From contig CAWKPF010000002.1 of NCBI GenBank assembly GCA_963851415.1, forward strand, positions 4,438,239-4,502,238: a stretch of DNA of 64,000 bases, written 5' to 3'. A program made the translations under genes and the position numbers. Positions 2,858 to 51,485 of this stretch are shown here, one piece after another (the first letter of the stretch is position 1; each line of letters starts with the position of its first letter). The notes under the pieces are model-generated. The model was not told the DNA's origin, searched no databases, and saw only the letters and a list, made by a program, of their open reading frames with translations. The stretch is from an uncultured Acidobacteriota bacterium. GTDB lineage: Bacteria > Acidobacteriota > Thermoanaerobaculia > Multivoradales > Multivoraceae.

Positions 2858-3020
2858 CGAGGGCCTACCTTCGGTCATGTTTGGGGGAGAAGGCATGTCG
2901 CCTCTCCCTCGAGGAGAACGTGTCGGGACTCTATAACAGGATGGCGAGCCGACGCAGTGCCCGAGTCGCCAGGAAAGTGCCGGGGAAGCGCCGGGAGAGC
3001 GCGGGAGACAGGGGCTCCGC

Positions 3021-6644: not shown

Positions 6645-9605
6645 CTACTTCCAGGCCAGACGCACGCCCAGGCGGTAGATGCGCGGGCTGACGTTGTCCT
6701 GCAGCCAGTCGGCGGAGCTGATGTCGAGCTGCCGCTGACGCGACATCTCGGTGCCCACGTTGGTGACGTTGAACACATCGATGCCGAAGGTCATGTTGAT
6801 GGGACCGGTGAGGTTGAACTCCTTCTCGAGCCGGAGGTCCAGCGTCGTGAGGTCGTCCAGGCGGTTGCTGTCGACGTCCGCCACCGAGATGCGCCGGCGC
6901 AGGCCGTCCGACATCAAGGGGCGCACGAAGTACATCATGGGGTATCCCTCGCGGGCCGTGAGGGCACCGGAGACGTTGAAGCCCCAGGGCCGGTCCGGAG
7001 CGATCTGGTAGAGGCCGGTCACATTGGCGGACCAGGTCGACTGCAGAAACCGCTCGCCCTTGCCGGAGCCGGTCGCCCGGGTGACATAGGTCTCCCCGTC
7101 GACGTCGTTGCGCCCGGCGCGATCGATGTCGTTGACCACGAAGCCCTCGAGGTTGGGATCGCTGTTCTGGGTGAAGCTCGCGGGAACGTCCCACTCGGCC
7201 TTGCCGTAGTTGAAGTAGCCCCGCAGCATCCACCGGTTGGCCAGCCGCTTGGTGAAGTTGACGGCCGCTCCGAGGTAGTCACGCTGACGATCGCCATTGG
7301 TGAGGTACTTGCCCCCGGTGCGCTCGAAGCCGTCCCGCAGGGCGAAGATCGGCACGTCGTAGCTCCCTCCGCTCGGCAGTGTGCCCGTGACCGAACCGTC
7401 CGGCACGTAGTCCGAAGAGGTCTCGGTTCGCACGATGCCCTCGGGAGTCTCGATGTACCACCGCTCGTCGAGGATGTTGTCGACCTGGCGAGCGGTCACC
7501 GTGGCCCCGATCACGAACTCGGGCAGCAGCGCGTGCTCGATGCTGGCCACCAGCTCGGTGGTCATCGGGGCGTCGAGGCTCGAGTCCGTCACGTTGGCGC
7601 TCGAGAGCGCCGTCGGGTTGTCGGGATCGACACCGTTGGCACCCGCGAAGGCACCCAGCGGCTCGTTGGTGTACTTGCCACTGGCGAGGGTCGGCTCGAA
7701 CTCGTAGTAGAGGTACACGTAGCTCGCGGGGTTGGTGCGGTTGATGTCGGCGGTGGACAACTGATCCGCGAACTGCGAGAGGCTGGCCCGGATCAGAGTG
7801 TCCCGCTCGGCCCCCAGGGCGTAGGTGAAGCCCAGGCGCGGAGTGATCGTCTGCCAGCTGTACTCCGGTCCGAAGCCCGGGAAGTCGATCGCCGGTAGCA
7901 GATTCGGGAAACCGAGGTTGGCCGGGACCTGAGCGGCCTCGTTGGTGCCCTTCTGGTCGTCGTAGCGCAGACCCGCGTTGATGGTGAAGCGGCCGAGGCT
8001 GATCGTGTCCTGGGCCCACACCGAGAAGTACTCCTGGGTCACCGGCGTCGCGATCCCGCGCAGCATGGCCACCTGGGGCAGTCCGCCGTCGGCCATCGGA
8101 GTGGCGTCGGTGTAGATGTTGCGGCCCGGCCAGATGAACGTGCTCGAGGTCTCGTAGTTGCGGTAGCGACCACCGACCTTGAGCTCGTGGTTGGTGTTGC
8201 CGGTGTTGAAGAAGTACGAGCTGTCGGCCTTGAACTCCTGGTTGGGGCTGGCAGCACTACCGGACTGGTAGTTGTCCTGCCACACGCCGTCGACGTCGTA
8301 CAGGGTCTCGGGCGCGTTCACGCCGACACCACCCTTGGTGGCCAGGGCGAAGCCGAAGTCGCCGAGCGAGTAGGTGCCGGTCAAGAAGAAGTTCGAGGAG
8401 AACACGTGGGTGTCCTCGAAGCGGTAGGACGCCGAAGGACCGCGCTGGTTCCAGGTCGTGATGTCGGGACGGGTCACGCCCGCGCCACGACCGAACTTCT
8501 GCTTGTCGCCGTTGTTCCACGAAGCAACGAAGCTGTTGGCCTGGGTGAACTGGGCGTTGGCCTTGAGCGCGGTGTTCTCGAGGATGGTGTCGTCGGCGGT
8601 GCCGGAGGCGGCGTTCTGCTGGATGTCGTTCTGCCCCCAGGAGCCCCACATCCAGAAGCGGTCACGAAGAACCGCACCACCGGCCTCGAAACCCATCTCC
8701 TCGATCTCACGGATCTGGGCACCGGCATAGTCGGCGAGGTCCTGGCCCGGGCCCATGTCACTCTGGTCGACGTTGACGTCGGCCTGTTCGAGGGCGCCAC
8801 CGAAGTAGCCGTTGGCCTTGGTGTTGAAGAACCGGGCAGAGCCGCGGAACTCGTTGCTGCCGCGCTTGGTCACCAGGTTGATGGAGACGCCGGCCGTGGT
8901 CTTGGACACGTCGGTGCCGCCGGTGGTGAACTGCATCTCGGCGAACTGGTCGAAGTCGAAGTAGGTCGACGACGCGCCGATCGCGCGCATGTCGGTCACG
9001 GTGACCCCGTCCATGAGGAAGTCGTTCTGGTCGTCCCCCACGCCCTGGGCGCGGAACGAAGACTGCTGGCCGGATTCGCTGCCACCGACGTTGACGCGGT
9101 CGACGAGCACGCCGGGCGTCTGTCCGACGATCGCCCACGGGTCGCGCGCCGACGGAATGCGCTCGAGCTCGACCTGGGTGACGGTGGTGCCCTGGGAGAG
9201 CTGACGCTCATCCAGCAGCGGGCTCTCGGAGGTCACGGTGATGGTCTCCTCGAGGGCGCTCTGGAGAACCAGCGGCACCGTCGTGTTGCGACCGATGCGC
9301 ACCTCGACGCCCGGGTACTCGACCGAGCCGAAGCCGTCGAGCTCGGCCTTGAGAGTCACGAGACCGGGGTCGATGGCCAGGAAGCGGAACTGCCCCTGCT
9401 GATCGGTCATCTGGGTTTTTTCGGCTCCGAGGCCGCTGATGGTCACGGTGACGCCCGGAAGGGCGGCTCCGTCGGCGTCGGTAACGGTGCCATAGACGTT
9501 TCCGGTCGGGGCCTGAGCCGCGGCCGGAGAAGCGAAGACACCTGCGATGAGGGCTGCGACCGCGGCGAGAACCAGAAGGCCTCGCAAAGTCTCAGTCGTC
9601 CGCAT
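6645..9605 (-). CDS. TonB-dependent receptor-like outer-membrane protein with N-terminal carboxypeptidase-regulatory-like domain (paralog 2, tandem duplicate of 3112..6054).
   Basis: ATG at 9605 preceded by aaggaga. Signal peptide MRTTETLRGLLVLAAVAALIAGVFASPAAAQA. Long stretches identical to paralog 1 (NVYGTVTDADG, ETITVTSESPLLDERQLSQGTTVTQVELERIPSARDPWAIVGQTPGVLVDRVNVGGSESGQQS, RFWMWGSWGQNDIQQNA). The ORF-track N-terminal extension to 9851 is rejected for lack of a signal peptide there. Confidence 0.88.
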   Translation of the reverse strand: MRTTETLRGLLVLAAVAALIAGVFASPAAAQAPTGNVYGTVTDADGAALPGVTVTISGLGAEKTQMTDQQGQFRFLAIDPGLVTLKAELDGFGSVEYPGVEVRIGRNTTVPLVLQSALEETITVTSESPLLDERQLSQGTTVTQVELERIPSARDPWAIVGQTPGVLVDRVNVGGSESGQQSSFRAQGVGDDQNDFLMDGVTVTDMRAIGASSTYFDFDQFAEMQFTTGGTDVSKTTAGVSINLVTKRGSNEFRGSARFFNTKANGYFGGALEQADVNVDQSDMGPGQDLADYAGAQIREIEEMGFEAGGAVLRDRFWMWGSWGQNDIQQNAASGTADDTILENTALKANAQFTQANSFVASWNNGDKQKFGRGAGVTRPDITTWNQRGPSASYRFEDTHVFSSNFFLTGTYSLGDFGFALATKGGVGVNAPETLYDVDGVWQDNYQSGSAASPNQEFKADSSYFFNTGNTNHELKVGGRYRNYETSSTFIWPGRNIYTDATPMADGGLPQVAMLRGIATPVTQEYFSVWAQDTISLGRFTINAGLRYDDQKGTNEAAQVPANLGFPNLLPAIDFPGFGPEYSWQTITPRLGFTYALGAERDTLIRASLSQFADQLSTADINRTNPASYVYLYYEFEPTLASGKYTNEPLGAFAGANGVDPDNPTALSSANVTDSSLDAPMTTELVASIEHALLPEFVIGATVTARQVDNILDERWYIETPEGIVRTETSSDYVPDGSVTGTLPSGGSYDVPIFALRDGFERTGGKYLTNGDRQRDYLGAAVNFTKRLANRWMLRGYFNYGKAEWDVPASFTQNSDPNLEGFVVNDIDRAGRNDVDGETYVTRATGSGKGERFLQSTWSANVTGLYQIAPDRPWGFNVSGALTAREGYPMMYFVRPLMSDGLRRRISVADVDSNRLDDLTTLDLRLEKEFNLTGPINMTFGIDVFNVTNVGTEMSRQRQLDISSADWLQDNVSPRIYRLGVRLAWK

Positions 9606-10240
9606 GATGATCGTCTCCTTTGACGAAATGGGCGGACCTGAGGGGGTCCGCGAGTGTGCCGAACCGCACCGCTGTCGATGGAGGTCGGCGGTTCGATGTG
9701 CTTGCCAGGGGTAAGAGCAAGGCTGATGCCATTCGCCAGGCTGCCGGGAAAAGCCTTTGTTTTCAGTAGCTTGGGAGGCGACGATCGAGGCCTCCAGCGC
9801 TGGGACGAACGAGGGACGGGAAAGGGACGGTCCTGGGACCGGACGATTCAATGGGACGAATGGAATCGAGATTTATGAACTGCCGCCGAGGCGCCGCCAA
9901 CGGCCCGGGAGCGGGGCCGAGGGAGGAACGCTGGTCGCAAGCGCCCGGATCCAGGGATGCTCGGGGAGGTCGCCTGGCCCGGTCGGGAGTGGTGCGAGTG
10001 GGCTCCGGTTCGGGCTCCAGACGGCGGGAAGCCGGGATCGGGCTCCGGTATCTTCGGTGCCCTGTCTCGGCCCCGGGACGACCGGGGGCTCTCGACCCGA
10101 GCCGCTCGGGGGCGGCGAGCGAAGAGAACCCGCGGAGCGCGAGATCCGTACAAGGAGGACTGCTCTCTCCTTCGGGGATCCGCGACCTCGGTCACGGGAC
10201 TGTTGTCCGGGACTGTTAGGGTGCGCTTCCTGTCTGGGAG

Positions 10241-11377
10241 ATGACGATGACTCGAATGACGACCCTTGCCAAGAGACTGATTCTGGCCGCCGCGGTCTCG
10301 ACCCTGGCGGCCTGCTCGACCTATCAACCCCTCGACACCGAGAAGATGCTCTCGGAGGACCTCGACACCCTGGTCGATCCGGAGCTGCAGGCGTTGCTGA
10401 TCGTTCCCTATGAGCTGGACGACAGCGTTCGGGAGTCGATTCGGGGACGGGTCAACCCGGCTGCGAGCGAGCGTCGCCGCAGCGAGGCGATCCAGGACTT
10501 CATCTTCGGCAACCTCGACCTGCAGTATGCGTTGACACCGACTCGCGATGCGGTGGCGACGTACCACATGGCGCAGGGCAACTGCCTCTCCTTCGTCAAC
10601 CTCTTCGTCGGGATCGGTCGCGAGATGCGCTTGAATCCGTTCTACGTCGAGGTCGAAGATTATCAGCGATGGAACTACCAGGATGGCGTCGTGGTCAGCC
10701 GTGGGCACATCGTGGCCGGCATGTACATCGACGGCGAGCTCTCGACCTTCGACTTCCTTCCGTACCGTCCCAAGTCGTACAAGGAGTTCAAGCCGATCAG
10801 CGATGTGTGGGCCACGGCGCACTACTACAACAACCTGGGTGCGGAGGCGCTGATGGACGAGCGCCTGGAAGAGGCCGGCCGGTTCCTCGAGATCGCGCAC
10901 CAGCTCTCCCCGACCTTCGACAAGGCGATCAACAACCTGGGGATCGTGCGCATGCGCAACGGGGACGTCGAGGGGGCGATCGAGCTCTACGAGCGAGGGC
11001 GCGAGATTCATCCGGAGGACGTGCCGATCCTGAGCAACCTGACCCGCGCCTATCAGCAGAACGGACAGGTGGAGGAGGCCGACGAGCTGCTCGACTATCT
11101 CGAAAAGGTCAACCAGACGAATCCGTTCTTCTTCGTCTATCGCGGCGACGTCGCGCTGGCCAACGGAGACACGGTCACGGCTCTGGAATACATGCGCAAG
11201 GCCTACACCACGGACACGGAGCTTCCCGAGGTGCACGTGGGACTGGCGCGGGTGTACCTCGCGATCGGGAAGACCAAGGAGGCGCAGCATCACATCGAGC
11301 GCGCGCTCAAGTTGGACGCCACGCACGAGGAGGCGCGCAAGTACGCCGCGATGTTGATTCCGAGCACCCGCAACTGA
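10241..11377 (+). CDS. Lipoprotein with transglutaminase-like cysteine-protease core (Cys-His-Asp) and C-terminal TPR repeats.
   Basis: ATG start. Lipobox LAAC (VSTLAAC). Transglutaminase-core-like blocks GNCLSFVNLFVGIGREMRLNPFYV (Cys) and RGHIVAGMYIDGELSTFDF (His, Asp). TPR-like repeats from about aa 200 (AHYYNNLGAEAL, AINNLGIVRMRNGDVEGAIELYERG, NLTRAYQQNGQVEEADELLDY, YRGDVALANGDTVTALEYMRKA, LARVYLAIGKTKEAQHHIERALKLD). Confidence 0.85.
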   Translation: MTMTRMTTLAKRLILAAAVSTLAACSTYQPLDTEKMLSEDLDTLVDPELQALLIVPYELDDSVRESIRGRVNPAASERRRSEAIQDFIFGNLDLQYALTPTRDAVATYHMAQGNCLSFVNLFVGIGREMRLNPFYVEVEDYQRWNYQDGVVVSRGHIVAGMYIDGELSTFDFLPYRPKSYKEFKPISDVWATAHYYNNLGAEALMDERLEEAGRFLEIAHQLSPTFDKAINNLGIVRMRNGDVEGAIELYERGREIHPEDVPILSNLTRAYQQNGQVEEADELLDYLEKVNQTNPFFFVYRGDVALANGDTVTALEYMRKAYTTDTELPEVHVGLARVYLAIGKTKEAQHHIERALKLDATHEEARKYAAMLIPSTRN

Positions 11378-11471
11378 GTGCGCCCACGATCGAGTGCGCT
11401 ATGATGAAGAGTCACGGAGCGGATTCAAGGAGCAGATGCAGAGCAGGCAGGACACAACCAGGGAGAAGGCC

Positions 11472-13757
11472 ATGAACAGAGCCGATCGAGACGACGCTCC
11501 GAATCGGATTCCGAGTCCATCGAACATCGACACGGGAACCGGAACAGCGGCTCGTCGACGGGTTCTTTGTCGAGGGAAGGGTCTCCTCGCGTTCTGCCTC
11601 TGCGGTGTCCTGCTCGGTGCTCCGGCTGCCTGGGCTCAGGAGGAGGGCTCGACTCCGTCGCCCGACGACCTCGAGCAGTTCGAAGACCGTGCCGGGGTCT
11701 TCGAAGTCCAGGTTCCCGTCAACGTCGTGGATCGGGACGGGGCTCCGGTCCGCGACCTCACGATGGCCGACTTCGAGGTCTTCGACAAGGGGGAGCGCCA
11801 GGAGCTGACCGGCTTTCACGTGATCGATCTCGACACCATCGAGCCCGATCCGTTGCGGCCGAACGAGGCCGAGCAGCTCATTCCGTCGGCGGCGCGGCGT
11901 TACTTTCTCTTCTTGTTCGATCTCTCTTTCTCGGCCCCGAGCTCGGTGGTGCGTGCCCGCCAGGCCGCGCGCGACTTCGTGCTCAACGACATGCATCCCA
12001 CCGATCTGGCGGCCGTGGCCACGCATGCGGTCGAGGGCGGGGCGAAACTGATCATGACCTTCAGCCCCGATCGGGCACAGCTGGCGCGCGCCATCGACAC
12101 CCTGGGGGCTCCCAGGCTGCTCGCTCTGCAAAACCGCGACCCCTTGCGCTTCCTGGTCGATCTTCCCGAGGTCGCCTCCCTGCAGGCCGTCCAGGACGCC
12201 TCGACAGTCGACTCGAGCATTGCCCGAACGCAGGGGGCCGAGGTGAGCGCTTACCTGAACGTGATCGGTCGACAGATGATCAAGCAGGAGAAGAGCTACG
12301 CCATGGGGCGGGTTTCGACGTGGAGTGTCAGCATGGGGTCGATGGCCGAACTGCTGGGCGGCATCGAGGGTCGCAAGCACGTCGTGCTGTTCTCCGAGGG
12401 CTTCGACGGTCGCCTCATGCTCGGTCGGCAGCCCGACGAGATGGATCCCACCGAGCGGGCCGACATCGTCAACATCCAGAACGGCCAGTACCACATGGTC
12501 GACAACGACGACCGGTTCGGCAACACCCAGATCCAGGGCGCCATGAACGTCATGGTGCAGAAGTTCCGGGAGGCTGGGGCGGTGATCCAGGCGGTGGATA
12601 TCTCGGGTCTGCGGGCGGACCTGCCGGCCGAGCATCGGAGCCGTCGCGTCGGACAGGACGCGCTCTACACGTTGGCGAACGACACGGGCGGCACGCTCTA
12701 CGAGGACGCCAACGACTTCGGCGCGGAGCTGGCCGAGGTGCTGCGCCGCTCGACCGTGACCTACCTGCTCTCCTACACCCCTTCGGAGATGGGGGAGGCC
12801 GGTGAATATCGCCGGCTCGATGTGAAGGTCGAAGGGCACCGGGGCTCCAACGTCTCCCATCGCCAGGGCTACAAGGTGCCGCGGCCGTTCCAGGATCTCC
12901 ATCCGATGGAGAAGAGCCTGCTGGCGGCCGACCTGATCGCGACCGCCACCCTGCGCGACGATTTCGACATGCACGTGCTGGCCGCACCCTTTCGGGCGAC
13001 CGAGCAGGAGGCATATCTGCCCGTGATCATCGAGATCGCGGGCGCCGGTCTGCTGGCGGATCACGAGGCAGAGCAGTTGCCGGTCGAGTTCTATACGTAC
13101 GTCACCGACCAGAACGGCGAGATGCGCGACTTCTTCACCCAGAAGGTCACGCTCAACCTCACCGACCGCGATGCGTTCGTCTCCAGCGGCCTGAAGTACT
13201 ACGGGCACATCGACCTCGAGCCCGGCGAGTACATGTTGAGGGTACTGGCCCGGAACTCGAGCACGGGGCGCACGTCGGTGCGGACCGTTCAGGTCGACGT
13301 GCCGGAGTATGCCGAGCAGGCGCTCAGCCTGTTGCCTCCCTTCTTCCTCGAAGAGCCCGGGAGCTGGTTCCTGGTGCGTGAGCAGAGGCCGGGAGACGAC
13401 TACCGAAAGAGCACGGTCTATCCGTTTACGGTGAACGGCGAGCCGTACATTCCCTCGGCGAAGGCACGCTTCGAGGCCGGCGACAGTGCCGAGCTGTGTC
13501 TGGTGGCCTACAACTTCGGTGCCGGCCAGTTGCAGGTCGACACCCAGGTCATCGGGGTCGACGGGGCCACGGTCGATGGAGGCCGCCTGGCGGTGAAGGA
13601 GCGGACGGTGACCGGCATCGAAGGGCTCGACAAGGTGACCGCGACCTTCGAGACCGACGGACTGGCCGCAGGTGACTACACGCTGCAAGTGGCGTTGATC
13701 GATCCCTCCACCCAGACCCGGCAGGTCAACCAGATTCCCTTTCGCGTCGACGGTTGA
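11472..13757 (+). CDS. Secreted von Willebrand factor A (VWA) domain protein, TIGR03436-like (VWFA-related Acidobacterial domain) family, paralog 1.
   Basis: ATG at 11472 preceded by gggagaagg. Signal peptide LLAFCLCGVLLGAPAAWAQ. VWA-like blocks RYFLFLFDLSFS and VVLFSEGFDG. N-terminal beta-sandwich (VQVPVNVVDRDGAPVRDLTMADFEVFD). It is paralogous to 13900..16047 and 16067..17830. The ORF-track start at 11394 is possible but has no signal peptide. Confidence 0.8.
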   Translation: MNRADRDDAPNRIPSPSNIDTGTGTAARRRVLCRGKGLLAFCLCGVLLGAPAAWAQEEGSTPSPDDLEQFEDRAGVFEVQVPVNVVDRDGAPVRDLTMADFEVFDKGERQELTGFHVIDLDTIEPDPLRPNEAEQLIPSAARRYFLFLFDLSFSAPSSVVRARQAARDFVLNDMHPTDLAAVATHAVEGGAKLIMTFSPDRAQLARAIDTLGAPRLLALQNRDPLRFLVDLPEVASLQAVQDASTVDSSIARTQGAEVSAYLNVIGRQMIKQEKSYAMGRVSTWSVSMGSMAELLGGIEGRKHVVLFSEGFDGRLMLGRQPDEMDPTERADIVNIQNGQYHMVDNDDRFGNTQIQGAMNVMVQKFREAGAVIQAVDISGLRADLPAEHRSRRVGQDALYTLANDTGGTLYEDANDFGAELAEVLRRSTVTYLLSYTPSEMGEAGEYRRLDVKVEGHRGSNVSHRQGYKVPRPFQDLHPMEKSLLAADLIATATLRDDFDMHVLAAPFRATEQEAYLPVIIEIAGAGLLADHEAEQLPVEFYTYVTDQNGEMRDFFTQKVTLNLTDRDAFVSSGLKYYGHIDLEPGEYMLRVLARNSSTGRTSVRTVQVDVPEYAEQALSLLPPFFLEEPGSWFLVREQRPGDDYRKSTVYPFTVNGEPYIPSAKARFEAGDSAELCLVAYNFGAGQLQVDTQVIGVDGATVDGGRLAVKERTVTGIEGLDKVTATFETDGLAAGDYTLQVALIDPSTQTRQVNQIPFRVDG

Positions 13758-13899
13758 TGCGGTCGGCGGCGGAGGGGGTAGACTGAGCGAACCGTGAGAA
13801 GCCGTTCGCGCGGCCGGAGTCGAGACCGCCAGCGTCTTCGTTGATGCGGCTTCGATGTGGCCCCTGCTCTCACAGAAACCTCTTCGGAAGGACTGCCCC

Positions 13900-16047
13900 A
13901 TGAGTAGCCAGAATCGACTCCGCCGACCGATGGGCGCTTGTGCCGTGGTCACGCTGATCTGTGTCGCGCTGCTGGCCGGCCCCGCGATCGGCCAGCGCAA
14001 GAAGAAGGACAAGAAGAACGAGCAGTTCTCCGACGTGACCTCGGTGACCGTGATCGAGGTGCCGGTGAATGTGTCGGTGAAGGACGAGCCCGTGCGGGGA
14101 TTGACGGCGGATGACTTCACGGTGCTCGATGGGCGCAAGGAAGTGGAGATCGTCGGCTTCGACGTGATCGATCTCTCCGAGACCGAAGAGGGTGCGCCCG
14201 AGGTCGAGGTCACGGTGGCCGCTCGCCGGCACTTCCTCGCCTTCTTCGACCTGTCGTACTCCGATCCCTCCTCGGTCGATCGGGCACGGGAGTCGGCGGC
14301 CTCGCTGGTGATGGAGAGCCTGCACCCGAGCGACCTGGTGGCGGTGGCGACCTACAGCCGGTCGAAGGGACCTCGCATGGTGCTCGGCTTCACCACCGAC
14401 CGCAACCAGATCCGGCAGGCGATCGAGACCCTCGGATTCACCAACAGGGAGCGACCCTCCGAGGATCCTCTCGGCCTGGTCATCGGGGATCTCGATCGGG
14501 CCATCGACGGCGGTGGTGGCCTCGGGGGCGGCGGTGCCGATTCCGAGCTCCAGGCGAACATGCGCGAGCTCCAGAACCTCCAGTCCCAGGCACGCCAGGG
14601 CGAGGAGAGCTCACGGCTGGCGGAGCGCATGGACGGCCTCGCGGCGGTCGCGCAGATGATGGACGCCATCCAGGGGCGCAAGCACGTGCTCTACCTCTCC
14701 GAGGGCTTCGATTCGGAGTCCATCTTCGGGCGGGATACCAACAGCCTCGAAGACATCCAGGACGCGATCCGCGAGCAGCAAGCGGCCGAGTCGGGGCAAT
14801 ATCAGAACGTCAACTCCGACCGACGCTATGGCAACTCCCAGACGCGTGCGGTCGTCGATCGTGCCCTGCGAGCCTTCCGGCAGTCCAACTGCTCGATTCA
14901 GGCGGTCGACATCGGTGGCCTCCAGGCGGGGACCAAGAACAAGAACCTCGACTCACTCCGCTACATGGCCCGCGAGACGGGGGGCGACGCTTTCGCCAAC
15001 ACCAACAACCTGGGCGAGGCGATGGGGGAGATGCTGGCTCGCACCAGTGTGACCTACGTGCTGGCGATTCAGCCCAGCGACCTGCCCGAGCCGGGCGAGT
15101 TCAGAGAGCTCACCGTCAAGCTCGAGAACGGTCCCCGTGGCGCCGACGTCTCTCATCGTCCCGGCTACTACGCTCCGCGCGGCTACGCTCAGCAGTCGGC
15201 CTTCGAGCGCCAGCTCAGCACCGCGCAGAAGGTGGTCGGAGGGCAGGAGGGAAGCGGCTCGGTAGACCTGAGCGTGCTGGCTGGCGCCTTCGAAGCCTCG
15301 GGCAAAGCCTACGTGCCGGTGCTGGTGGAAGTCGACGGCAGCAGCTTGAGCGAAGGGCTCGCGGGTGAGGCGCTGCCGCTCGAGATCTACGCCTATGCGT
15401 TGGACTCCACCGGAGCGGTCCGCAGCTTCTTCAATCGGGGCGTGGGCCTGGACATGAAGGCGGTGGGGCCGGCGATCAACCAGAGTGGCGTCAAGTACTG
15501 GGGCCATTTCGATCTCGCCCCCGGCGAGTACACCGTGCGCGTGCTGGTGCGCAACAGCGAGACCGGCGCTGACGGGATCGACGTCAGTCACGTCACGGTG
15601 CCGGGCGGGGCGGACACCCCCTCGGCACTCCTTCCTCCCCTGTTCCCGGAGCCCGTGGGTTACTGGCTGATGTTGCGGGAGGAGGAGAGTGAGCAGCGGG
15701 CCGGAATCGATTTCCCGTTCATGGCTCATGGAGAGCCCTTCATTCCCGCGGCGCGGCCGAAGCTCTCGGGAGGGAGTGCGGCGAAGCTGCAGCTGGTGGC
15801 CTACAACCTCGGAGCGGGGGCGCTCAGCGCAACGGCTCAGCTTCTTTCGGAATCGGGCGAGACGGTGACCGGTAGCGAGCTGACGTTGGCTGACGACGCC
15901 GCCGGCAACGATGGGATGGCTCGTCTGGACGGTACCCTGGTGCCGGCCAAGGCTCCCGCGGGCGACTACACGCTGGTCGTCAATGTGAAGAACCTTGCCA
16001 GCGGGAGCCAGATGGTGTCTTCCCTACCGGTGACGATCGGCGGCTAG
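13900..16047 (+). CDS. Secreted VWA domain protein, TIGR03436-like, paralog 2.
   Basis: ATG at 13900 preceded by ggaagga. Signal peptide MGACAVVTLICVALLAGPAIG. Blocks VIEVPVNVSVKDEPVRGLTADDFTVLD, RHFLAFFDLSYS and HVLYLSEGFDS align with paralog 1. Confidence 0.82.
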   Translation: MSSQNRLRRPMGACAVVTLICVALLAGPAIGQRKKKDKKNEQFSDVTSVTVIEVPVNVSVKDEPVRGLTADDFTVLDGRKEVEIVGFDVIDLSETEEGAPEVEVTVAARRHFLAFFDLSYSDPSSVDRARESAASLVMESLHPSDLVAVATYSRSKGPRMVLGFTTDRNQIRQAIETLGFTNRERPSEDPLGLVIGDLDRAIDGGGGLGGGGADSELQANMRELQNLQSQARQGEESSRLAERMDGLAAVAQMMDAIQGRKHVLYLSEGFDSESIFGRDTNSLEDIQDAIREQQAAESGQYQNVNSDRRYGNSQTRAVVDRALRAFRQSNCSIQAVDIGGLQAGTKNKNLDSLRYMARETGGDAFANTNNLGEAMGEMLARTSVTYVLAIQPSDLPEPGEFRELTVKLENGPRGADVSHRPGYYAPRGYAQQSAFERQLSTAQKVVGGQEGSGSVDLSVLAGAFEASGKAYVPVLVEVDGSSLSEGLAGEALPLEIYAYALDSTGAVRSFFNRGVGLDMKAVGPAINQSGVKYWGHFDLAPGEYTVRVLVRNSETGADGIDVSHVTVPGGADTPSALLPPLFPEPVGYWLMLREEESEQRAGIDFPFMAHGEPFIPAARPKLSGGSAAKLQLVAYNLGAGALSATAQLLSESGETVTGSELTLADDAAGNDGMARLDGTLVPAKAPAGDYTLVVNVKNLASGSQMVSSLPVTIGG

Positions 16048-18095: not shown

Positions 18096-18222
18096 CCCCC
18101 CGGAATCGCCGGGCAGTCCGCTGGGGTCGGCTCGCTCGCCCCTGCGAGACGAGCTCCTTCAGTGGACTCGCCCCGATCGGTGGCTCTACACTCGCTGCGA
18201 TGTCCTCGCACCGCGCCACGGC

Positions 18223-20308
18223 TTGTCTTGCCACCCTCGGACTTCTCTGGGCAGGAGCTGCGGTCGGCTCCGAGGCGAGCCCTGGCGAGCCGCCCGAGCG
18301 CCGCAACGTGTTGCTGGTGTCCGTCGACACGCTGCGCCCCGATGCCCTCGGCTGCTATGGCTCACCCCGGGCCTCGACCCCGTATATCGACTCGCTGGCG
18401 GCGCGGGGGGTGCGCTTCGAGTGGGCGCTCGCCCCGACTCCGCTGACTCTTCCTTCCCACGCTTCGCTGCTCACCGGGCGGGAGCCTCCCGGTCACGGCC
18501 TGAGGGACAACAGCGGCTTTCTGCTGGCCGACGGGGTGGAGACCCTGGCCGGGGCGCTCCAGAAAGGTGGCTATGCGACCGGAGCGTTCGTGGCGGCTCT
18601 CCCCCTCGACTCTCAGTTCGGGCTCGACCGCGGCTTCGATCACTACGACGATCGGCTCACGGGATCCACGCGGCTGCGTGCCGCCACCGCGATGGCGGAG
18701 CGCGGAGCCGAAGAGGTGGCCGATGCCACGATCGGTTGGCTCGAGCTCCAGCAGGACTCCCGTTGGTTCGCCTGGGTGCACTTCTACGATCCCCATGCGC
18801 CCTACGATCCTCCCGAGCGTTTCGCCGCGAGCGGGGACCGCACGGCCTACGCGGGGGAGGTGAGCTACGTCGACGAGCAGATCGGCCGGTTGCTCGCATG
18901 GCTCACGAAGCGCCAGTGGCTGAACGAGACCCTGGTGGTCTTGACCGCCGATCACGGTGAGAGTCTGGGTGAGCATGGCGAGCTCACCCACGGCATCTTC
19001 GCCTACGAGAGCACCCTGCGGGTGCCGCTGATCTTCGCGCCCTTCGACACCAGGGTCGAGGAGCGGCGGGTGCGCCTGATCGATCTGGCGCCGACCATTC
19101 TCGATCTGCAGGGGCTGTCGTTCGACGAGGGAGTCGACGGCGAGTCGCTCGCCCCCTTGCTGCGGGGTGAGTCGGCCGAGGGCCCGCCCTCGCCCAGCTA
19201 CTTCGAGGCCCTCACCATGCACCTGAACATGGGATGGGCACCGCTGCGCGGAATCTACGCCGAGCGTTTCAAGTACATCGAGCTGCCGATTGCAGAGCTC
19301 TACGATCTCGATGTCGATCGAGGAGAATCGAAGAACCTCTGTGTCGAGCCGGCCGCCTGCGAGGCCTGGGGCGAACGACTCGTCGAGCTCGCCGGAGTGC
19401 TCGTGTCCCCTCGGCCCGAAGTCGGTGTCGATCCTCAGATGCAGGCACAGCTCGAGGCTCTGGGCTATGTAGCAGGGGGATCTTCCGGAGAGCATCGACG
19501 CTACGGCCCCGGAGACGATCCCAAGCGGCTGGTCGGACTGTGGAACCGCGTGAACGCGGCGGTGGCGGCGCACCAACAAGGGCGACACGAATCGGCGCTC
19601 GCCGAGCTCGCCGCGGTGGCCGCCGAACGGCCGTCGATGCCGTTGGCCTACCTCAAGAGAGCGGCCATCCAGGACGAGCTCGGTCAGCTGGACGCGGCGA
19701 TCGCCACGCTCGAGCAGGCGGTGAGCGAGGGTGCGGGAGGCGTTTTCGTCGAGCGGGAGCTCGGCCTGCTGTTGGTGCGCAAGGGACGCGTCGACGAGGC
19801 GGTTCGGCATCTGCAGCGTGCCGAGCAGGAGGGGCCGGATCGGCTCGACGTCCTCGATGCCCTCGCCTCGGCCTATCTGGCCGCGGGCCAGTCCGAGCTG
19901 GCCGAGCGAACCTATCGCCGGGCCCTCTCGATCGACGACTCGTCCGTGCGGCTCCATCTTCAGCTGGGTACGTTGCTGATGCTCATCGATCGGGTCGAGG
20001 AGGCGGTCGATGCCTTTCGAAGCGCCGTGAACCACGGTCCGGACGTGGCGCAGGCACATACCGGACTCGGACTGGCTCTGGCGAGCTCGGGTCGTAGGGA
20101 CGAGGCGATGTCCAGTTGGCAGCGTGCGCTCGAGCTGGATCGCTCCGAACTGAGCGCGATGCTGCAGCTCGGCTTCGCCTATCTGGAGCGAGGAGACCGT
20201 GCGAGAGCGACTCCGCTCCTCGAGGAGTTTCTCGAGAGCGCCCCCCCGGAGCGCTATGCGCGCGAGATCGAGCTGGTGCGCTCGACGCTCGGACGCGCCG
20301 GCGGCTGA
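18223..20308 (+). CDS. Secreted sulfatase-fold (alkaline-phosphatase superfamily) enzyme fused to C-terminal TPR repeats (paralog of 1..1757).
   Basis: ATG at 18223. Signal peptide MSSHRATACLATLGLLWAGAAVG. Sulfatase-family blocks NVLLVSVDTLRPDALGCYG, LTADHGESLGEHGELTHGIFAYESTLRVPLIF and RFKYIELPIAELYDLDVDRGESKN. The C-terminal ~230 aa are TPR-like (LAYLKRAAIQDELGQLDAAIATLEQA..., AHTGLGLALASSGRRDEAMSSWQRALELD). The longer ORF-track start at 17960 gives an R-rich extension without a signal peptide and is rejected. Confidence 0.88.
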
Positions 20309-20415: not shown

Positions 20416-21732
20416 GTGGAACAGACACTTGCTTTCGTCACCTTGTTTCTGGGGCTGGTCACCGGCTCTCAAGAGATCGAGCTGTTGGTCGGGGAGGGCG
20501 TCGTGGCCGTCGAGCTCCGGTTGGACGGCGAGCTCTGCGATCGGCTCGAGGCTCCGCCGTGGGTCGCAGAGTGTGACTTCGGTGCCACCCTCGAGCCCCA
20601 TCACCTCGAGGCGGTCGCCTGGGACGCGTCGAGTCTGGAAGTGGCCCGCACCGATCAGTGGCTGAACCTCCCGCGGCCCTCGGCCGAGGCGAAGCTGATC
20701 GTGGAGCCGGGCCGCGCCGGGGTGCCGGGGCTGGTGCGCCTGACCTGGCAGAGTCTCACCAGTGTCAGCCCGCAGCGGATCTCGGTCGAGCTCGACGGAA
20801 GCGAGTTGGATGTCCGAGACCCGAGCGCGATTCCCCTGCCGCCTCTCGACATGGATCAACTGCACTTCCTGCGAGCCGAGCTGGACTTCGCGGAGAACGT
20901 CAGCGCCGTGGCCGAGGCGACCTTCGGTGGCTTCTATGCCGAAGATGTGGCCACGGAGTTGACTGCTGTGCCCGTCGTGCTCGAGCGCGGCCGCCTGGGC
21001 GACCCGGTCGAGATGCAGGGCTGGTTTCGTCATCTCGGCATCGAGTCTCGTGTCGCGGCGACCGAGAAGGGGGTCGCCGACGTGGTGGTCGTGCGGTCGG
21101 CGAGCGCGGCGTCCGCACTGGCCCAGATGCTGAGCCGCGAGGCGGAGTCGAGGTCCTACCGGAGGAGCGCGAGCTCGCGGAGCACTCGTTTCGTGCACGC
21201 TCTTTCGGGGGACATGCGAATCCAATTCATCTGGCCCCATCCCGAGCGGCGGCAACAGCGGGATCAGGTCTACGAGCTCTTTCCGCGCTCTCAGGAGCTC
21301 GGCCCGGACGATGGCGGTTGGCTGTGGCTGCTCGGCCGCACCCGTCAGCCCTCCTATGCGCCCGAAAGGGAGCGCCTCTGCGATGCGGTGGCGGTGGCGG
21401 GGCTCAATGCCGGGCGACGCGATCGGCGTCGAGTGGTCGTGGCCATTCTCGGTGAAGGCACCGAGGACGCCAGCCAGATGCCGCCCGAAATGGTGCGGGG
21501 GTACCTGTCTTCGATCCGGGTTCCTCTGTTTGTCTGGACCTTCGGCGAGTCGGCCGACGCGAACGAGTGGGGAGAGGTCGAGCAGATCCGCAACCGGGCC
21601 GATCTCGGCCGGGCGATCCGACGTGTCTCGAAGGCAGTGGGCCAGCAGCGGATCGTCTGGCTCGACGGACGGCTGCTGCCCCAGCACGTCCAGTTGACCG
21701 AGCAGGCCAGCGGGGTCCGGCTTGTCCCTTGA
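20416..21732 (+). CDS. Hypothetical secreted protein (no recognisable catalytic motif).
   Basis: GTG start followed by a hydrophobic N-terminus (EQTLAFVTLFLGLVTGSQE). Codon and amino-acid usage are coherent over 438 aa. It ends 14 nt before the next gene. Confidence 0.6.
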   Translation: MEQTLAFVTLFLGLVTGSQEIELLVGEGVVAVELRLDGELCDRLEAPPWVAECDFGATLEPHHLEAVAWDASSLEVARTDQWLNLPRPSAEAKLIVEPGRAGVPGLVRLTWQSLTSVSPQRISVELDGSELDVRDPSAIPLPPLDMDQLHFLRAELDFAENVSAVAEATFGGFYAEDVATELTAVPVVLERGRLGDPVEMQGWFRHLGIESRVAATEKGVADVVVVRSASAASALAQMLSREAESRSYRRSASSRSTRFVHALSGDMRIQFIWPHPERRQQRDQVYELFPRSQELGPDDGGWLWLLGRTRQPSYAPERERLCDAVAVAGLNAGRRDRRRVVVAILGEGTEDASQMPPEMVRGYLSSIRVPLFVWTFGESADANEWGEVEQIRNRADLGRAIRRVSKAVGQQRIVWLDGRLLPQHVQLTEQASGVRLVP

Positions 21733-21745
21733 GGGCGGGCCTCGG

Positions 21746-23041
21746 ATGGTGGCCCTCCTCGTGTCGGGAGCTCTCGGTGCCGTCGCTGCACAGGGCACGC
21801 TCGCGCAGGCGGTCGTGCCTCGGGCCGGCGAGCCGCAAGAGTCGCCCACCGACCGACCCGTGCTCGGAGCCCGCTCGACGCTGAAGATCGAGGACGAGAG
21901 CAGGGTAGCGCTCGCCGCGGGAACCTCCCTGCACGACTCGCCCAGCGAGTGGTCCACGATCCTGGCTCGCCTGGAGGTCGGACGCGAGCTCTCCGTTCTC
22001 GAGCGGAGACCGGGTTGGCTGCTGGTGCGCTACGAGGACCTCCGGGCCTGGGTTCGAGACCCGGAGACCTCGGCTGTGAGGCAACAGCCGGAGACCGAGA
22101 TTCCGGCGGAGCTCTGGCGGCAGCTGGCACCGAGCCCCGAACGACTGTCGCGGGCCGCCGAGCTCCTCGGCTCCCCGGCCGAGCGGGAGCTCGGTGCCTA
22201 CCGATTGCTCACCGATCTCGACCCGGGCCGCGGACGCGACGATCGGTTGCTGGCACGGCTGGGTCGCCTCGCCGAGGAGGTGGAGAGAGTGTTTCGAGAG
22301 CGCTACGCAGTGCCCCTTGCCGAGCCGCCGGAGCCGCAGTTGATCGTGCTCCTGCGACGCAAGCGGACCTACCGCGAGTTCGTGGCCCAGGAGGGTTCGA
22401 TCGCAGGGGCGCCCAGCGTCGGCCACGCGAGTCCCGGAATGATGGTACTGGCCACCGAGGGTCTCGACGAAGAGGAGCTCGCTGCCACCTTCGTCCACGA
22501 GCTCGTTCACCTGCTCAATCAACGAGCCTTCCTGCGCGAGCTCGCGCCCTGGCTCGAGGAGGGTCTGGCGGAGGATCTCGGTCTGGCACGAGTCTCGGAG
22601 AGTGGGAGCGTCGACGTGGCTTCCTTGCGCGGCTCCGCGACGCTGCACAGCGGCCGCACACGTGACGACCGTGGCGAGGAGGTGTACTTCCAGGAGCTGG
22701 TGGTGCGCGGGCCTCGACTGGTGCTCGGGCGAGTGATCGAGCGCTGGCACCGGAGTGGGGGACCCGATCTGGTGGCCCTGCTCGAGCTGCCGTGGAGCGA
22801 GTTCGCTCTCGGATCGGAGTGGGACCTGAACTACATCGAGAGTGCATTCCTGGTGCGCTATCTCCTCGATGCGCAGGAGGAGCGATTCAGAGACGGGGCG
22901 CGGGCGTTCTTGCGTGCCGTGCGCCTGGGCGGACCGAGTGATGCACCGGCCCTGACCCGGTACCTCAGGGTCTCGGTGGAGGAGCTCGAGGAGGGATTCG
23001 CGGCGTGGTGCGCGTTTCAGGGCGTCGAGCCCAACGGATAG
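21746..23041 (+). CDS. Secreted protein with SH3b-like N-terminal domain and HExxH...E (gluzincin-like) putative zinc metallopeptidase motif.
   Basis: ATG at 21746 followed by a signal peptide (MVALLVSGALGAVAAQG). SH3b-like block ELSVLERRPGWLLVRYEDLRAWV. HExxH motif FVHELVHLL, with EEGLAE about 15 residues downstream as a candidate third zinc ligand. Confidence 0.7.
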   Translation: MVALLVSGALGAVAAQGTLAQAVVPRAGEPQESPTDRPVLGARSTLKIEDESRVALAAGTSLHDSPSEWSTILARLEVGRELSVLERRPGWLLVRYEDLRAWVRDPETSAVRQQPETEIPAELWRQLAPSPERLSRAAELLGSPAERELGAYRLLTDLDPGRGRDDRLLARLGRLAEEVERVFRERYAVPLAEPPEPQLIVLLRRKRTYREFVAQEGSIAGAPSVGHASPGMMVLATEGLDEEELAATFVHELVHLLNQRAFLRELAPWLEEGLAEDLGLARVSESGSVDVASLRGSATLHSGRTRDDRGEEVYFQELVVRGPRLVLGRVIERWHRSGGPDLVALLELPWSEFALGSEWDLNYIESAFLVRYLLDAQEERFRDGARAFLRAVRLGGPSDAPALTRYLRVSVEELEEGFAAWCAFQGVEPNG

Positions 23042-35545: not shown

Positions 35546-35552
35546 GGGGTGA

Positions 35553-43808: not shown

Positions 43809-43951
43809 GCACCCTCTCGGTTTCTCCTCAGATCCCTCGGGGGAACCGGTGGCGCCGAAGCAGCGGTCGGCGCGGTACACTGCGGCAGTCGGCAAGCCGT
43901 GCAACCGCCAGTACTCGGGGCCTTTGCGGTCCGTTGGCAGAGGGAGTGCCC

Positions 43952-49923: not shown

Positions 49924-51485
<1,562 letters not shown>

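What the first reader, a model, noticed from the sequence alone, without database searches (positions are those of the whole stretch)
18223..20308. Sulfatase-fold/TPR fusion paralogs in which the formylglycine motif C-x-P-x-R is replaced by T-L-P-S-H (also 1..1757)
Both paralogs have a full sulfatase/alkaline-phosphatase-superfamily N-terminal domain. At the position where sulfatases carry C/S-x-P-x-R, the residue that is converted to formylglycine, the sequences read TPLTLPSHASLLTG (18223..20308) and NVMTLPSHANLLTG (1..1757). Thr replaces Cys/Ser and His replaces Arg, and this is conserved in both copies. Thr nucleophiles occur in the phosphoethanolamine-transferase and LtaS branches of the superfamily, not in sulfatases. 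These proteins are therefore probably not sulfatases but phospho- or other ester transferases or hydrolases. The roughly 230-aa C-terminal TPR array is an unusual fusion for this fold and implies protein-protein targeting. Two copies flank the TBDR/VWA region on opposite strands.
Basis: seen in the sequence. Interest (0 to 1): 0.6.

Follow-up and report, generated by a model that had tools for sequence, protein, structure and literature searches.

The report
Threonine-type sulfatase-fold enzymes with TPR tails
Two exported proteins in this Acidobacteria-like genome look like sulfatases but carry the threonine and histidine active site of phosphate-ester enzymes plus a TPR tail; they belong to a very large, uncharacterised family that databases label loosely as sulfatase-like.

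Summary
Gene A (18200..20308, +, 702 aa) and gene B (1..1757, -, cut by the window edge) are about 40% identical paralogs. Each has a signal peptide, a sulfatase-fold domain and seven C-terminal TPR pairs.

Alignments to a solved sulfatase, E. coli AslA, Xanthomonas NPP and E. coli EptA all put Thr83 on the formylglycine/nucleophile position and His87 on the sulfatase Arg. The sulfatase Lys/His (GKWH) pair is gone. Present instead are NPP-like Asn104 and the EptA-like residues His194, His199, Asp251-His252 and His264. All are nearly invariant in 107 relatives.

These are therefore almost certainly not sulfatases. The best reading is exported Thr-nucleophile metallo-phosphoesterases or phosphotransferases.

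"Unusual fusion" is wrong as a statement of rarity:
- About 20,000 clusters at 50% identity match at E<=1e-30.
- Nearly all of the closest homologs carry T-x-P-x-H and TPRs.
- Genes often sit in tandem arrays (up to five), next to CarboxypepD_reg TonB-receptor-like barrels and sometimes NPP-type genes.

I found no solved structure, curated family model or paper for the family. Substrate and chemistry remain untested. It is a new variant of a known kind, of moderate interest.

The parts
18200..20308 (+). Gene A: exported sulfatase-fold/TPR protein, 702 aa including the signal peptide; stop codon at 20306..20308
   Evidence: ORF. 100% identical to database protein P0001, 702 aa. Pfam PF00884 plus TPR families. 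AF2 model with pLDDT 90.9 and pTM 0.87.
18200..18268 (+). Probable Sec signal peptide (MSSHRATACLATLGLLWAGAAVG); no transmembrane domain follows
   Evidence: Read from the sequence. Low pLDDT for residues 1-26. The homologs printed show similar hydrophobic N-termini just before the first strand. The cleavage site is inferred, not predicted by a tool.
18296..19414 (+). Catalytic domain (residues 33 to about 405): sulfatase-type alpha/beta core plus the small C-terminal subdomain
   Evidence: PF00884 at residues 35-305, SGSH_C at 257-385, PF01663 at 37-105. Foldseek top hits are S1 sulfatases, PMH and choline sulfatase, with TM-scores normalised to target length of 0.6-0.7.
18446..18460 (+). T83-L-P-S-H87: nucleophile loop, with Thr at the formylglycine position and His at the Arg position
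   Evidence: T83 is conserved in 105 of 107 and H87 in 95 of 107.
18509..18511 (+). N104, exactly 21 residues after T83, the same spacing as T90 to N111 in Xanthomonas NPP
   Evidence: hhalign to the 2gsn sequence (sequence validated). Conserved in 84 of 107.
18779..18796 (+). H194-F-Y-D197-P-H199: candidate second-metal or substrate His/Asp cluster
   Evidence: Aligns with the 'lHtigsHgP' segment of E. coli EptA. H194 104/107, D197 102/107, H199 107/107. Translation.
18950..18994 (+). D251-H252-G-E-S-L-G-E-H259-G-E-L-T-H264-G: metal-ligand loop, nearly identical to EptA 'DHGESLGENGiylHG'
   Evidence: D251 and H252 107/107, H259 101/107, H264 105/107. In AslA the corresponding residues are D-N, and the sulfatase Lys lies in an insertion that is absent here.
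19520..20305 (+). C-terminal TPR domain: a capping helix plus seven TPR-like helix pairs (residues 441-701)
   Evidence: Pfam TPR_1, TPR_2, TPR_11, TPR_16, TPR_19 and others. DSSP helices of the model. PDB hits to consensus TPR proteins, OGT and MamA.
1..1757 (-). Gene B: paralog, 39-42% identical to A, with the same architecture; its C-terminus runs off the window
1515..1529 (-). T77-L-P-S-H81 of gene B
1847..2896 (-). CarboxypepD_reg + TPR protein, 89 nt upstream of gene B on the same strand; probable operon partner
   Evidence: Pfam. The same gene order occurs in L050, and a homologous gene lies near paralogs in L083. Co-transcription is inferred.
3112..6096 (-). TonB-dependent-receptor-like outer-membrane barrel (CarboxypepD_reg + Plug), upstream of gene B on the same strand
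   Evidence: Pfam. Recurrent neighbour of the family.
6645..9851 (-). Second TBDR-like barrel, 72% identical to the first (tandem duplicate)

Best explanation
Genes A and B encode exported, soluble enzymes of the alkaline-phosphatase superfamily. They keep the two-subdomain fold of formylglycine sulfatases but have the active site of Thr-nucleophile metallo-phosphoryl-transfer enzymes.

Proposed mechanism, inferred by homology: a metal ion held by D43, D251 and H252 activates the hydroxyl of T83. T83 attacks a phosphate ester, most likely a phosphodiester or monoester, and forms a covalent phospho-threonine intermediate. N104 and the His cluster H194/D197/H199/H264 bind the non-bridging oxygens, possibly through a second metal, as in NPP and EptA/MCR-1. 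Water, or an acceptor, then resolves the intermediate.

The seven-TPR C-terminal domain is a docking or substrate-binding module.

The genes sit in tandem paralog arrays beside CarboxypepD_reg TonB-receptor-like outer-membrane barrels, and sometimes beside PF01663 phosphodiesterase genes. I therefore favour a role in envelope-located processing of imported or envelope-bound phosphate esters, such as organophosphate scavenging, with hydrolysis more likely than transfer.

Shown: fold, motif register, conservation, architecture, gene neighbourhood. Inferred: metal identity and number, phospho-ester chemistry, hydrolase versus transferase, TPR role.
For: Fold and scaffold. PF00884 matches at E=5e-45 together with SGSH_C. 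The AF2 model has pLDDT 90.9 and its Foldseek top hits are S1 sulfatases and PMH.

Nucleophile swap.
- T83 aligns with Cys/Ser in 6pt6 and AslA, and H87 aligns with Arg.
- T83, H87 and N104 align with T90, H94 and N111 of Xanthomonas NPP; D43 aligns with D54 and D251/H252 with D257/H258 (hhalign probability 98.5, reference sequence validated).
- Against E. coli EptA, D43-T44 aligns with E-T, T83 with the nucleophile Thr of GTAT, and H194/H199 with the two His of 'lHtigsHgP'. DHGESLGE is identical, and H264 aligns with the His of 'ylHG'.

Sulfate-binding residues. The GKWH Lys/His pair is replaced by Ala/Pro, and the second sulfatase Lys lies in an insertion this family lacks.

Conservation across 107 domains from several phyla: D43 107, T83 105, H199 107, D251/H252 107, H264 105, H194 104.

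Localisation. Both window proteins, and the 14 full-length homolog N-termini printed, start with a signal-peptide-like hydrophobic stretch; no TM domain is seen.

Gene context.
- 22 of 80 loci have 2-3 tandem paralogs; one contig has five in a row after a barrel gene.
- TBDR-like genes occur in 18 of 80 loci, 17 of them within 3 kb, and in 3 of 4 annotated contigs of close homologs.
- PF01663 genes occur in 12 of 80 loci.

Literature. Thr cannot give formylglycine, and Thr-bearing PF00884 proteins are not accepted as sulfatases (PMC5066984).
Against: - No biochemical data exist for any member that I could find.
- I could not inspect model coordinates, so the geometry of the proposed metal sites is unverified.
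- The alignment of D197/H199 to NPP D210/H214 is shifted by about one residue and is not convincing, so a bimetallo site is not established.
- By sequence and fold the domain is closer overall to one-metal sulfatases than to NPP or EptA.
- N104 is replaced in about 20% of relatives and H87 in about 10%.
- The TBDR association has no genome-wide background control.
- The window's own gene A sits next to VWA and unknown genes, not next to a barrel gene.
Confidence: 0.6

Rival explanations
1. The protein is a soluble periplasmic phosphotransferase rather than a hydrolase. T83 picks up a phospho-alcohol group such as phosphoethanolamine, phosphoglycerol or phosphocholine and transfers it to an envelope glycan, lipid or protein, as EptA, LtaS, OpgB and PptA do. 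The TPR domain replaces the membrane anchor by docking onto a partner.
For: The loop DHGESLGEHGxxTHG and the H194/H199 pair match EptA almost residue for residue, and D43-T44 resembles the E-T of EptA. TPR domains in periplasmic proteins commonly dock onto envelope machines, for example BepA and LapB; this rests on general knowledge, reflected in the NCBIfam TPR hits. Soluble processed forms of LtaS and OpgB are known (my own knowledge, not tested here).
Against: There is no TM domain to reach a lipid donor. Characterised soluble AP-superfamily members are mostly hydrolases. All PEtN-transferase NCBIfam models score far below their cut-offs, about 20 bits against 500 or more. Tandem arrays of up to five paralogs next to an uptake-type barrel look more like catabolic or scavenging loci.
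Confidence: 0.2
2. The protein is a non-catalytic or regulatory protein built on an enzyme scaffold, a pseudoenzyme like YejM/PbgA/LapC. The sulfatase-like domain would bind a ligand and the TPRs would bind a partner.
For: The TPR fusion suggests a scaffolding role. A weak NCBIfam match to LapC/YejM is seen (E=4e-9, 35 bits against a cut-off of 825). Large paralog families sometimes contain inactive members.
Against: Every predicted metal ligand and the nucleophile are almost invariant across phyla, in 105-107 of 107 domains. That is the signature of selection for catalysis.
Confidence: 0.1
3. The protein is a genuine sulfatase, or another sulfur-ester hydrolase, that uses Thr, a metal-bound water or an unknown modification instead of formylglycine.
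For: The best sequence and fold matches are S1 sulfatases and phosphonate monoester hydrolases. A canonical CAPSR sulfatase gene lies near one family member (L003).
Against: There is no C/S-x-P-x-R motif. The Arg, the Lys/His pair and the second Lys that bind sulfate and the fGly hydrate are all missing. Thr cannot be oxidised to formylglycine (PMC5066984). Thr-type AP-superfamily enzymes show only trace sulfatase activity (my own knowledge).
Confidence: 0.05

Closest known systems
S1 formylglycine-dependent sulfatases and phosphonate monoester hydrolases (PF00884; e.g. 6pt6, 4upi, choline sulfatase 6g5z, E. coli AslA)
   Same: These are the best sequence and fold matches, with phmmer E of about 3e-30 and Foldseek TM-scores (normalised to target length) of 0.6-0.7. 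They share the two-subdomain architecture including the SGSH_C-type C-terminal subdomain, the first metal Asp and the D-[HN]-G loop, and the x-P-S-x-x-x-L-L-T-G context of the nucleophile.
   Different: The nucleophile is Thr, not Cys/Ser converted to fGly. His replaces the motif Arg. The GKWH Lys/His pair and the second Lys are absent. The second Asp of the DD pair is Thr44. Extra invariant His residues are present (H194, H259, H264). A C-terminal TPR domain is fused.
Nucleotide pyrophosphatase/phosphodiesterase (NPP/ENPP, PF01663; Xanthomonas NPP 2gsn)
   Same: The nucleophile loop T-[FL]-P-[NS]-H-x-x-[LI]-[VL]-T-G-x-x-P-x-x-H-G-x-x-x-N has identical spacing (T to N = 21 residues). D54, D257 and H258 have equivalents. 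Both are soluble exported enzymes. PF01663 matches residues 37-105 at E=1e-15.
   Different: The similarity is confined to the N-terminal half and the DHG loop: 197 aligned columns, with the middle poorly aligned. The rest of the fold, including the C-terminal subdomain, is sulfatase-like. The NPP ligands D210, H214 and H363 have no securely aligned equivalents.
Phosphoethanolamine transferases (EptA/MCR-1 family) and other membrane-anchored Thr-type PF00884 enzymes (LtaS, OpgB)
   Same: The Thr nucleophile, E/D-T-x-R at the first metal ligand, the two His of the 'H-x-x-x-x-H-x-P' segment, an identical DHGESLGE loop and the following His.
   Different: There is no N-terminal transmembrane domain. 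Overall similarity is much lower (hhalign E=5e-9; phmmer E of about 1e-3). NCBIfam models score far below their cut-offs. A sulfatase-type C-terminal subdomain and TPRs are present.
Periplasmic enzyme + C-terminal TPR fusions such as BepA (M48 protease + TPR)
   Same: An exported catalytic domain is followed by a TPR array, which in BepA docks the enzyme onto an outer-membrane machine (my own knowledge). A weak NCBIfam BepA TPR hit was seen for copy B.
   Different: The catalytic domain is unrelated, and no partner has been identified here.

Membership tests
S1 formylglycine-dependent sulfatases | Sulfatase/alkaline-phosphatase-type fold with an N-terminal alpha/beta domain and a C-terminal subdomain | tested here: met
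   PF00884 at E=5e-45 and SGSH_C at E=1e-10. Foldseek top 50 hits are all sulfatases, PMH or choline sulfatase.
S1 formylglycine-dependent sulfatases | (C/S)-x-(P/A)-x-R signature whose Cys/Ser is converted to formylglycine | tested here: not met
   T-L-P-S-H occupies the aligned position. No C/S-x-P-x-R occurs anywhere in A or B, and the signature is present in 0 of 120 homologs.
S1 formylglycine-dependent sulfatases | Sulfate-binding Lys/His residues (the GKWH motif and the later Lys before EGGxRVP) | tested here: not met
   hhalign to AslA: the K and H of GKWH align with Ala and Pro, and the later Lys lies in an insertion absent from the family.
S1 formylglycine-dependent sulfatases | Score above the curated family cut-offs (NCBIfam arylsulfatase, choline sulfatase, PehA) | tested here: not met
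   160 bits against 481, 136 against 433, and 108 against 900.
NPP/ENPP phosphodiesterases (PF01663) | Thr nucleophile in the T-F-P-N-H loop with the downstream Asn (T90/N111 in Xanthomonas NPP) | tested here: met
   hhalign probability 98.5; T83=T90, H87=H94, N104=N111. The reference sequence is 100% identical to 2gsn_A.
NPP/ENPP phosphodiesterases (PF01663) | Complete bimetallo ligand set (D54, T90, D257, H258 plus D210, H214, H363) | tested here: inconclusive
   The first four have aligned equivalents. D197, H199 and H264 are candidates for the second site, but the alignment there is shifted or absent. No coordinates were available.
NPP/ENPP phosphodiesterases (PF01663) | Full-length match to the NPP domain | tested here: not met
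   The best PF01663 stretch covers only profile positions 1-66 of 342. Overall, the best matches are sulfatases.
Phosphoethanolamine transferases (EptA/MCR) | Catalytic residues: E/D, Thr nucleophile, D-H, and the conserved His residues | tested here: met
   hhalign to E. coli EptA, probability 95.9, 254 columns.
Phosphoethanolamine transferases (EptA/MCR) | N-terminal multi-helix transmembrane domain | tested here: not met
   Only a signal-peptide-like N-terminus of about 25 aa precedes the first beta strand.
Phosphoethanolamine transferases (EptA/MCR) | Score above the NCBIfam cut-offs | tested here: not met
   About 16-27 bits against cut-offs of 500-1250.
Thr-nucleophile phosphoryl-transfer enzymes of the AP superfamily (functional class) | Demonstrated phospho-threonine intermediate, or phosphoesterase or transferase activity | not testable with these tools
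   This needs enzyme assays, metal analysis and a T83A mutant.

The most novel reading that the evidence does not exclude
The T-L-P-S-H/TPR proteins are a previously unrecognised, very abundant class of envelope enzymes in Acidobacteriota and other soil and sediment phyla. They would work together with CarboxypepD_reg TonB-receptor-like barrels, with the TPR domain docking on the barrel or binding the polymer much as SusD does for SusC. Together they would capture and cleave a class of environmental phosphodiesters (eDNA, teichoic-acid-like polymers or phospholipid head groups), with tandem paralogs providing different specificities. In evolutionary terms they would be a living intermediate between Thr-type bimetallo phosphoesterases and single-metal formylglycine sulfatases.
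Probability: 0.2. Interest if true: 0.7.

Novelty: new variant of a known kind. Interest (0 to 1): 0.45.

Why it matters
Automated pipelines give these proteins names such as 'arylsulfatase A-like enzyme' or 'choline-sulfatase' (JGI names). With roughly 20,000 clusters at 50% identity, that inflates the apparent sulfatase content of Acidobacteriota, Planctomycetota and related soil and sediment genomes, and it may hide a phosphorus-cycling activity.

For enzymologists, a sulfatase scaffold carrying an NPP-type Thr loop and EptA-type His ligands is a natural experiment in nucleophile and metal-site exchange within the alkaline-phosphatase superfamily.

The recurrent pairing with TonB-receptor-like barrels gives a testable entry point into the function of the very abundant and poorly understood CarboxypepD_reg barrels of Acidobacteria.

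None of this is established yet. What is shown here is the family signature and its gene neighbourhood, not a function.

Tried and rejected
- **Mis-registered motif.** I looked for a true C/S-x-P-x-R elsewhere in the proteins and found none.
- **NCBIfam.** No model reached its cut-off, so there is no curated family name.
- **Literature.** Searches for TLPSH, sulfatase with TPR, Acidobacteria or TonB, 'sulfatase domain' with TPR, and 'sulfatase-like hydrolase transferase' found nothing on this family. Only the SulfAtlas remark on Thr-bearing PF00884 proteins was relevant.
- **Window genome.** The look-up of encoding contigs for P0001 found no record, and the genome-contig scan did not return the window's own genome. 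The organism is therefore inferred only as Acidobacteriota-like, from the TIGR03436 domains and the taxonomy of the homologs.
- **VWA linkage.** acidobact_VWFA genes occur in only 2 of 80 loci, so I rejected VWA as a conserved partner.
- **FG-GAP/ASPIC linkage.** These genes are operonic with the family in the closest relative but occur in only 3 of 80 loci, so I did not take them as general partners.
- **Promoters and terminators.** The scan around gene A found nothing.
- **Short-segment PDB searches.** I used these to test whether the motif regions are closer to NPP or EptA than to sulfatases. Sulfatases still ranked first, with NPP at E of about 1e-6 and MCR/EptA at about 1e-3.
- **Neighbour families.** NCBIfam gave no names for the neighbouring PF01663 genes or the small conserved neighbour genes.
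Full report
**1. What is there**

The + strand ORF ending at 20308 corresponds to a 702-aa database protein, P0001, which is 100% identical to the window sequence. Its start is therefore the ATG at 18200. The second copy is 1..1757 on the - strand, and the window edge cuts off its C-terminus. The two copies are 39-42% identical, so they are old paralogs rather than a recent duplication, and the window holds no third copy.

Both proteins start with a signal-peptide-like hydrophobic stretch and have no transmembrane domain. Pfam finds PF00884 Sulfatase (E=5e-45 and 7e-35), the sulfatase C-terminal subdomain SGSH_C, a partial PF01663 (NPP) match confined to the first ~70 residues of the domain, and many TPR families. 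No NCBIfam model reaches its cut-off.

An AlphaFold2 model built on 113 homologs is confident (pLDDT 90.9, pTM 0.87). It shows the catalytic domain at residues ~33-405, a linker, and a capping helix plus seven TPR-like helix pairs at 441-701. Foldseek against the PDB returns only S1 sulfatases, phosphonate monoester hydrolases and choline sulfatases at the top, with TM-scores normalised to target length of 0.6-0.7. The best PDB sequence match is at E=3e-30 with 20-25% identity in the fold alignments, so no member of this family has a solved structure.

**2. The motif is real and correctly registered**

Translation gives TLPSHASLLTGREPPGHGLRDN in A and TLPSHANLLTGSYPWQHGVRDN in B.

- phmmer against the C84S carrageenan sulfatase 6pt6 puts T83 on the Cys/Ser and H87 on the Arg.
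- hhalign of a 33-sequence family profile against E. coli AslA (S-S-P-T-R) gives the same result over 354 columns at probability 98.9.
- Neither protein has a C/S-x-P-x-R motif anywhere, and none of 120 homologs has the canonical signature.

**3. The active site is of the phosphoryl-transfer type**

The same AslA alignment shows that the sulfatase GKWH Lys/His pair is replaced by Ala/Pro. The second sulfatase Lys lies in an insertion the family lacks, and D-N becomes D-H.

I compared the profile with Xanthomonas NPP, using a reference sequence shown to be 100% identical to 2gsn_A. At probability 98.5 the profile aligns as follows:

| Family residue | Xanthomonas NPP residue |
|---|---|
| D43 | D54 |
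| T83 | T90 |
| H87 | H94 |
| N104 | N111 |
| D251/H252 | D257/H258 |

The T-to-N spacing is 21 residues in both proteins.

Against E. coli EptA (probability 95.9):

| Family residue | E. coli EptA |
|---|---|
| D43-T44 | E-T |
| T83 | nucleophile Thr of GTAT |
| H194 and H199 | the two His of 'lHtigsHgP' |
| DHGESLGE | identical |
| H264 | His of 'ylHG' |

By my own knowledge of the MCR-1/EptA structures, these EptA residues are the zinc and substrate ligands.

In 107 catalytic domains from 80 genomes the conservation is:

| Residue | Conserved in (of 107) |
|---|---|
| D43 | 107 |
| T83 | 105 |
| H87 | 95 |
| N104 | 84 |
| H194 | 104 |
| D197 | 102 |
| H199 | 107 |
| D251/H252 | 107 |
| H259 | 101 |
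| H264 | 105 |

One of the two exceptions at T83 is a neighbouring gene that is a true CAPSR sulfatase.

This pattern indicates a catalytically active Thr-nucleophile metalloenzyme. I infer, but have not shown, that the chemistry is phosphate-ester hydrolysis or transfer through a phospho-Thr intermediate. Whether there are one or two metals is open. The alignment of D197/H199 to NPP D210/H214 is shifted, and I could not obtain model coordinates.

**4. The family is very large**

- The word-indexed search was saturated: 7,994 of 8,000 candidates scored E<=1e-10. The 120 best hits are almost all ~700-aa Sulfatase+TPR proteins. Sources name them 'sulfatase-like hydrolase/transferase', 'arylsulfatase A-like enzyme/Tfp pilus assembly protein PilF' or even 'choline-sulfatase'.
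- The exhaustive search of 50%-identity representatives finds 20,674 clusters at E<=1e-30, and the 150th hit still scores 323 bits.
- Of 143 new representatives, 136 carry the motif (in the loosened form, with P, A, S or T at the third position) and 114 are 620 aa or longer. A few proteins carry two catalytic domains.
- Genomes with members include Acidobacteriota (Vicinamibacteria, Thermoanaerobaculia, Aminicenantes, Terriglobia, Holophagae), Planctomycetota, Xanthomonadales-like Gammaproteobacteria (Dokdonella, Tahibacter), Myxococcota, Kiritimatiellia, Gemmatimonadota and others.

The TPR fusion is thus the normal form of a big family, not an oddity.

The SulfAtlas paper had already noted that half of the PF00884 seed sequences carry Thr instead of Cys/Ser and cannot be regarded as sulfatases (PMC5066984). 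I found no paper on this particular family.

**5. Gene neighbourhood**

The window's gene order is:

| Coordinates | Strand | Gene |
|---|---|---|
| 1..1757 | - | copy B |
| 1847..2896 | - | CarboxypepD_reg+TPR protein |
| 3112..6096 | - | CarboxypepD_reg+Plug TonB-receptor-like barrel |
| 6645..9851 | - | second barrel, 72% identical to the first |
| 9848..11326 | - | unknown ORF |
| 11394..13757 | + | TIGR03436 acidobact_VWFA |
| 13855..16047 | + | TIGR03436 acidobact_VWFA |
| 16067..~17830 | - | TIGR03436 acidobact_VWFA |
| 18200..20308 | + | copy A |
| 20416..21732 | + | unknown ORF |
| 21722..23041 | + | SH3 protein |

. Copy B is probably the last gene of a barrel / CarboxypepD_reg-TPR / enzyme operon, with gaps of 215 and 89 nt. 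A Thermoanaerobaculia contig (L050) has the same order.

Across 80 genome loci:

- 22 carry two or three tandem paralogs.
- A profile of the barrel protein hits 18 loci, and 17 of those hits lie within 3 kb of a family catalytic domain. A uniform spread over the +/-8 kb flanks would put roughly 40-50% there; this figure is my own rough arithmetic, not a genome-wide control.
- PF01663 (NPP-type) genes occur in 12 loci.
- VWA genes occur in only 2 loci.

In contigs with precomputed Pfam annotation:

- A barrel gene is followed by five tandem paralogs and then a GWxTD+TPR gene.
- A barrel gene is followed by two paralogs.
- A paralog is followed directly by a barrel gene.
- In the closest relative (58% identity), an FG-GAP/ASPIC gene overlaps the start of the enzyme gene by 4 bp, with two further paralogs and a CarboxypepD_reg-TPR gene nearby.

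This layout of an uptake-type barrel plus arrays of exported enzyme paralogs looks like a nutrient-processing locus. It is my reason for preferring hydrolysis of external or imported phosphate esters over an envelope-decorating transferase, but the evidence is circumstantial.

**6. Comparison with known families**

- **Formylglycine sulfatases.** It works unlike them and fails their defining signature, although it has their fold.
- **NPP.** It shares the nucleophile loop but not the rest of the domain.
- **EptA/MCR.** It shares the ligand set but lacks the membrane domain and scores far below the family cut-offs.

It is best described as a distinct, uncharacterised Thr-type clade of PF00884 with a fixed C-terminal TPR domain.

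**7. Verdict**

- The core interpretation, that these are not sulfatases but Thr-nucleophile ester enzymes, is supported.
- The claim that the fusion is unusual is not supported.
- The protein-targeting role of the TPRs is untested.
- Novelty: a new variant of a known kind.
- Interest is moderate (0.45). The family is huge, mis-named in some pipelines and functionally blank, but its general chemistry is predictable from known relatives. The idea that Thr-bearing PF00884 proteins are not sulfatases is already in the literature.

Noticed in passing
window 3112..6096 (-) and 6645..9851 (-): Two tandem CarboxypepD_reg+Plug TonB-receptor-like genes, 72% identical to each other. They are followed on the same strand by a CarboxypepD_reg+TPR gene (1847..2896) and sulfatase-like copy B, which makes a probable operon. 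The same order is seen in L050.
   Followed up: partly
window 11394..13757 (+), 13855..16047 (+), 16067..~17830 (-): Three adjacent genes with the TIGR03436 'acidobact_VWFA' domain (E=1e-42 to 1e-60). They are only 23-26% identical to each other. They are not conserved next to the sulfatase-like family elsewhere (2 of 80 loci).
   Followed up: partly
window 58903..62478 (-) and 62450..63925 (-); L083 895..10004: TPR+FG-GAP and FG-GAP+UnbV_ASPIC (CRTAC1-like) genes lie at the right end of the window. In the closest relative's contig (L083), three such genes sit in the same cluster as the sulfatase-like/TPR genes, and one overlaps its start by 4 bp. The same gene type is near a paralog in L086.
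   Followed up: partly
L085 1..14324: A CarboxypepD_reg/OMP_b-brl_4 barrel gene is followed by five consecutive sulfatase-like/TPR paralogs and then a GWxTD-domain+TPR protein. This is the most extreme tandem array seen.
   Followed up: no
L045 1702..15966 (also L015, L024, L041, L046, L074): A recurrent larger cluster: two ~770-aa PF01663 (NPP-type) genes, two sulfatase-like/TPR genes, a ~670-aa TPR protein, and a convergent TBDR-like barrel gene.
   Followed up: partly
P0121, P0122, P0123 (1,300-1,550 aa): Some family members contain two complete catalytic domains, with two T-x-P-x-H motifs (and two DHGE motifs in P0121 and P0122), in one polypeptide.
   Followed up: no
P0001 residues 418-444 (window ~19451..19531): The linker between the catalytic domain and the TPRs contains invariant residues L421-G422-Y423 and D440/K442 (consensus LRALGYV...DDPKRL). 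Their role is unknown.
   Followed up: no
L008, L013, L014, L016, L018, L025, L026, L032-L034, L044, L055: In Dokdonella/Tahibacter-like and Holophagae loci, two small conserved genes sit next to the family gene. One is ~350 aa with weak DUF1573/Ig-like hits, and the other is ~220 aa with no hits.
   Followed up: partly
window 42962..53474: A glycogen and alpha-glucan metabolism cluster: a GlgC-like NTP_transferase, two alpha-amylase-family genes (one with CBM48), a glycogen phosphorylase-like gene and a GH77 4-alpha-glucanotransferase.
   Followed up: no
window 34328..36776 (-) and 41539..42555 (-): Two adjacent ATP-grasp genes, with an S51-family peptidase and an esterase gene nearby. They are unrelated to the finding.
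   Followed up: no
window 20416..21732 (+) and 9848..11326 (-): ORFs of 438 and 492 aa with no Pfam or NCBIfam match and no homolog in the 80 related loci. The first lies 108 nt downstream of gene A on the same strand.
   Followed up: partly
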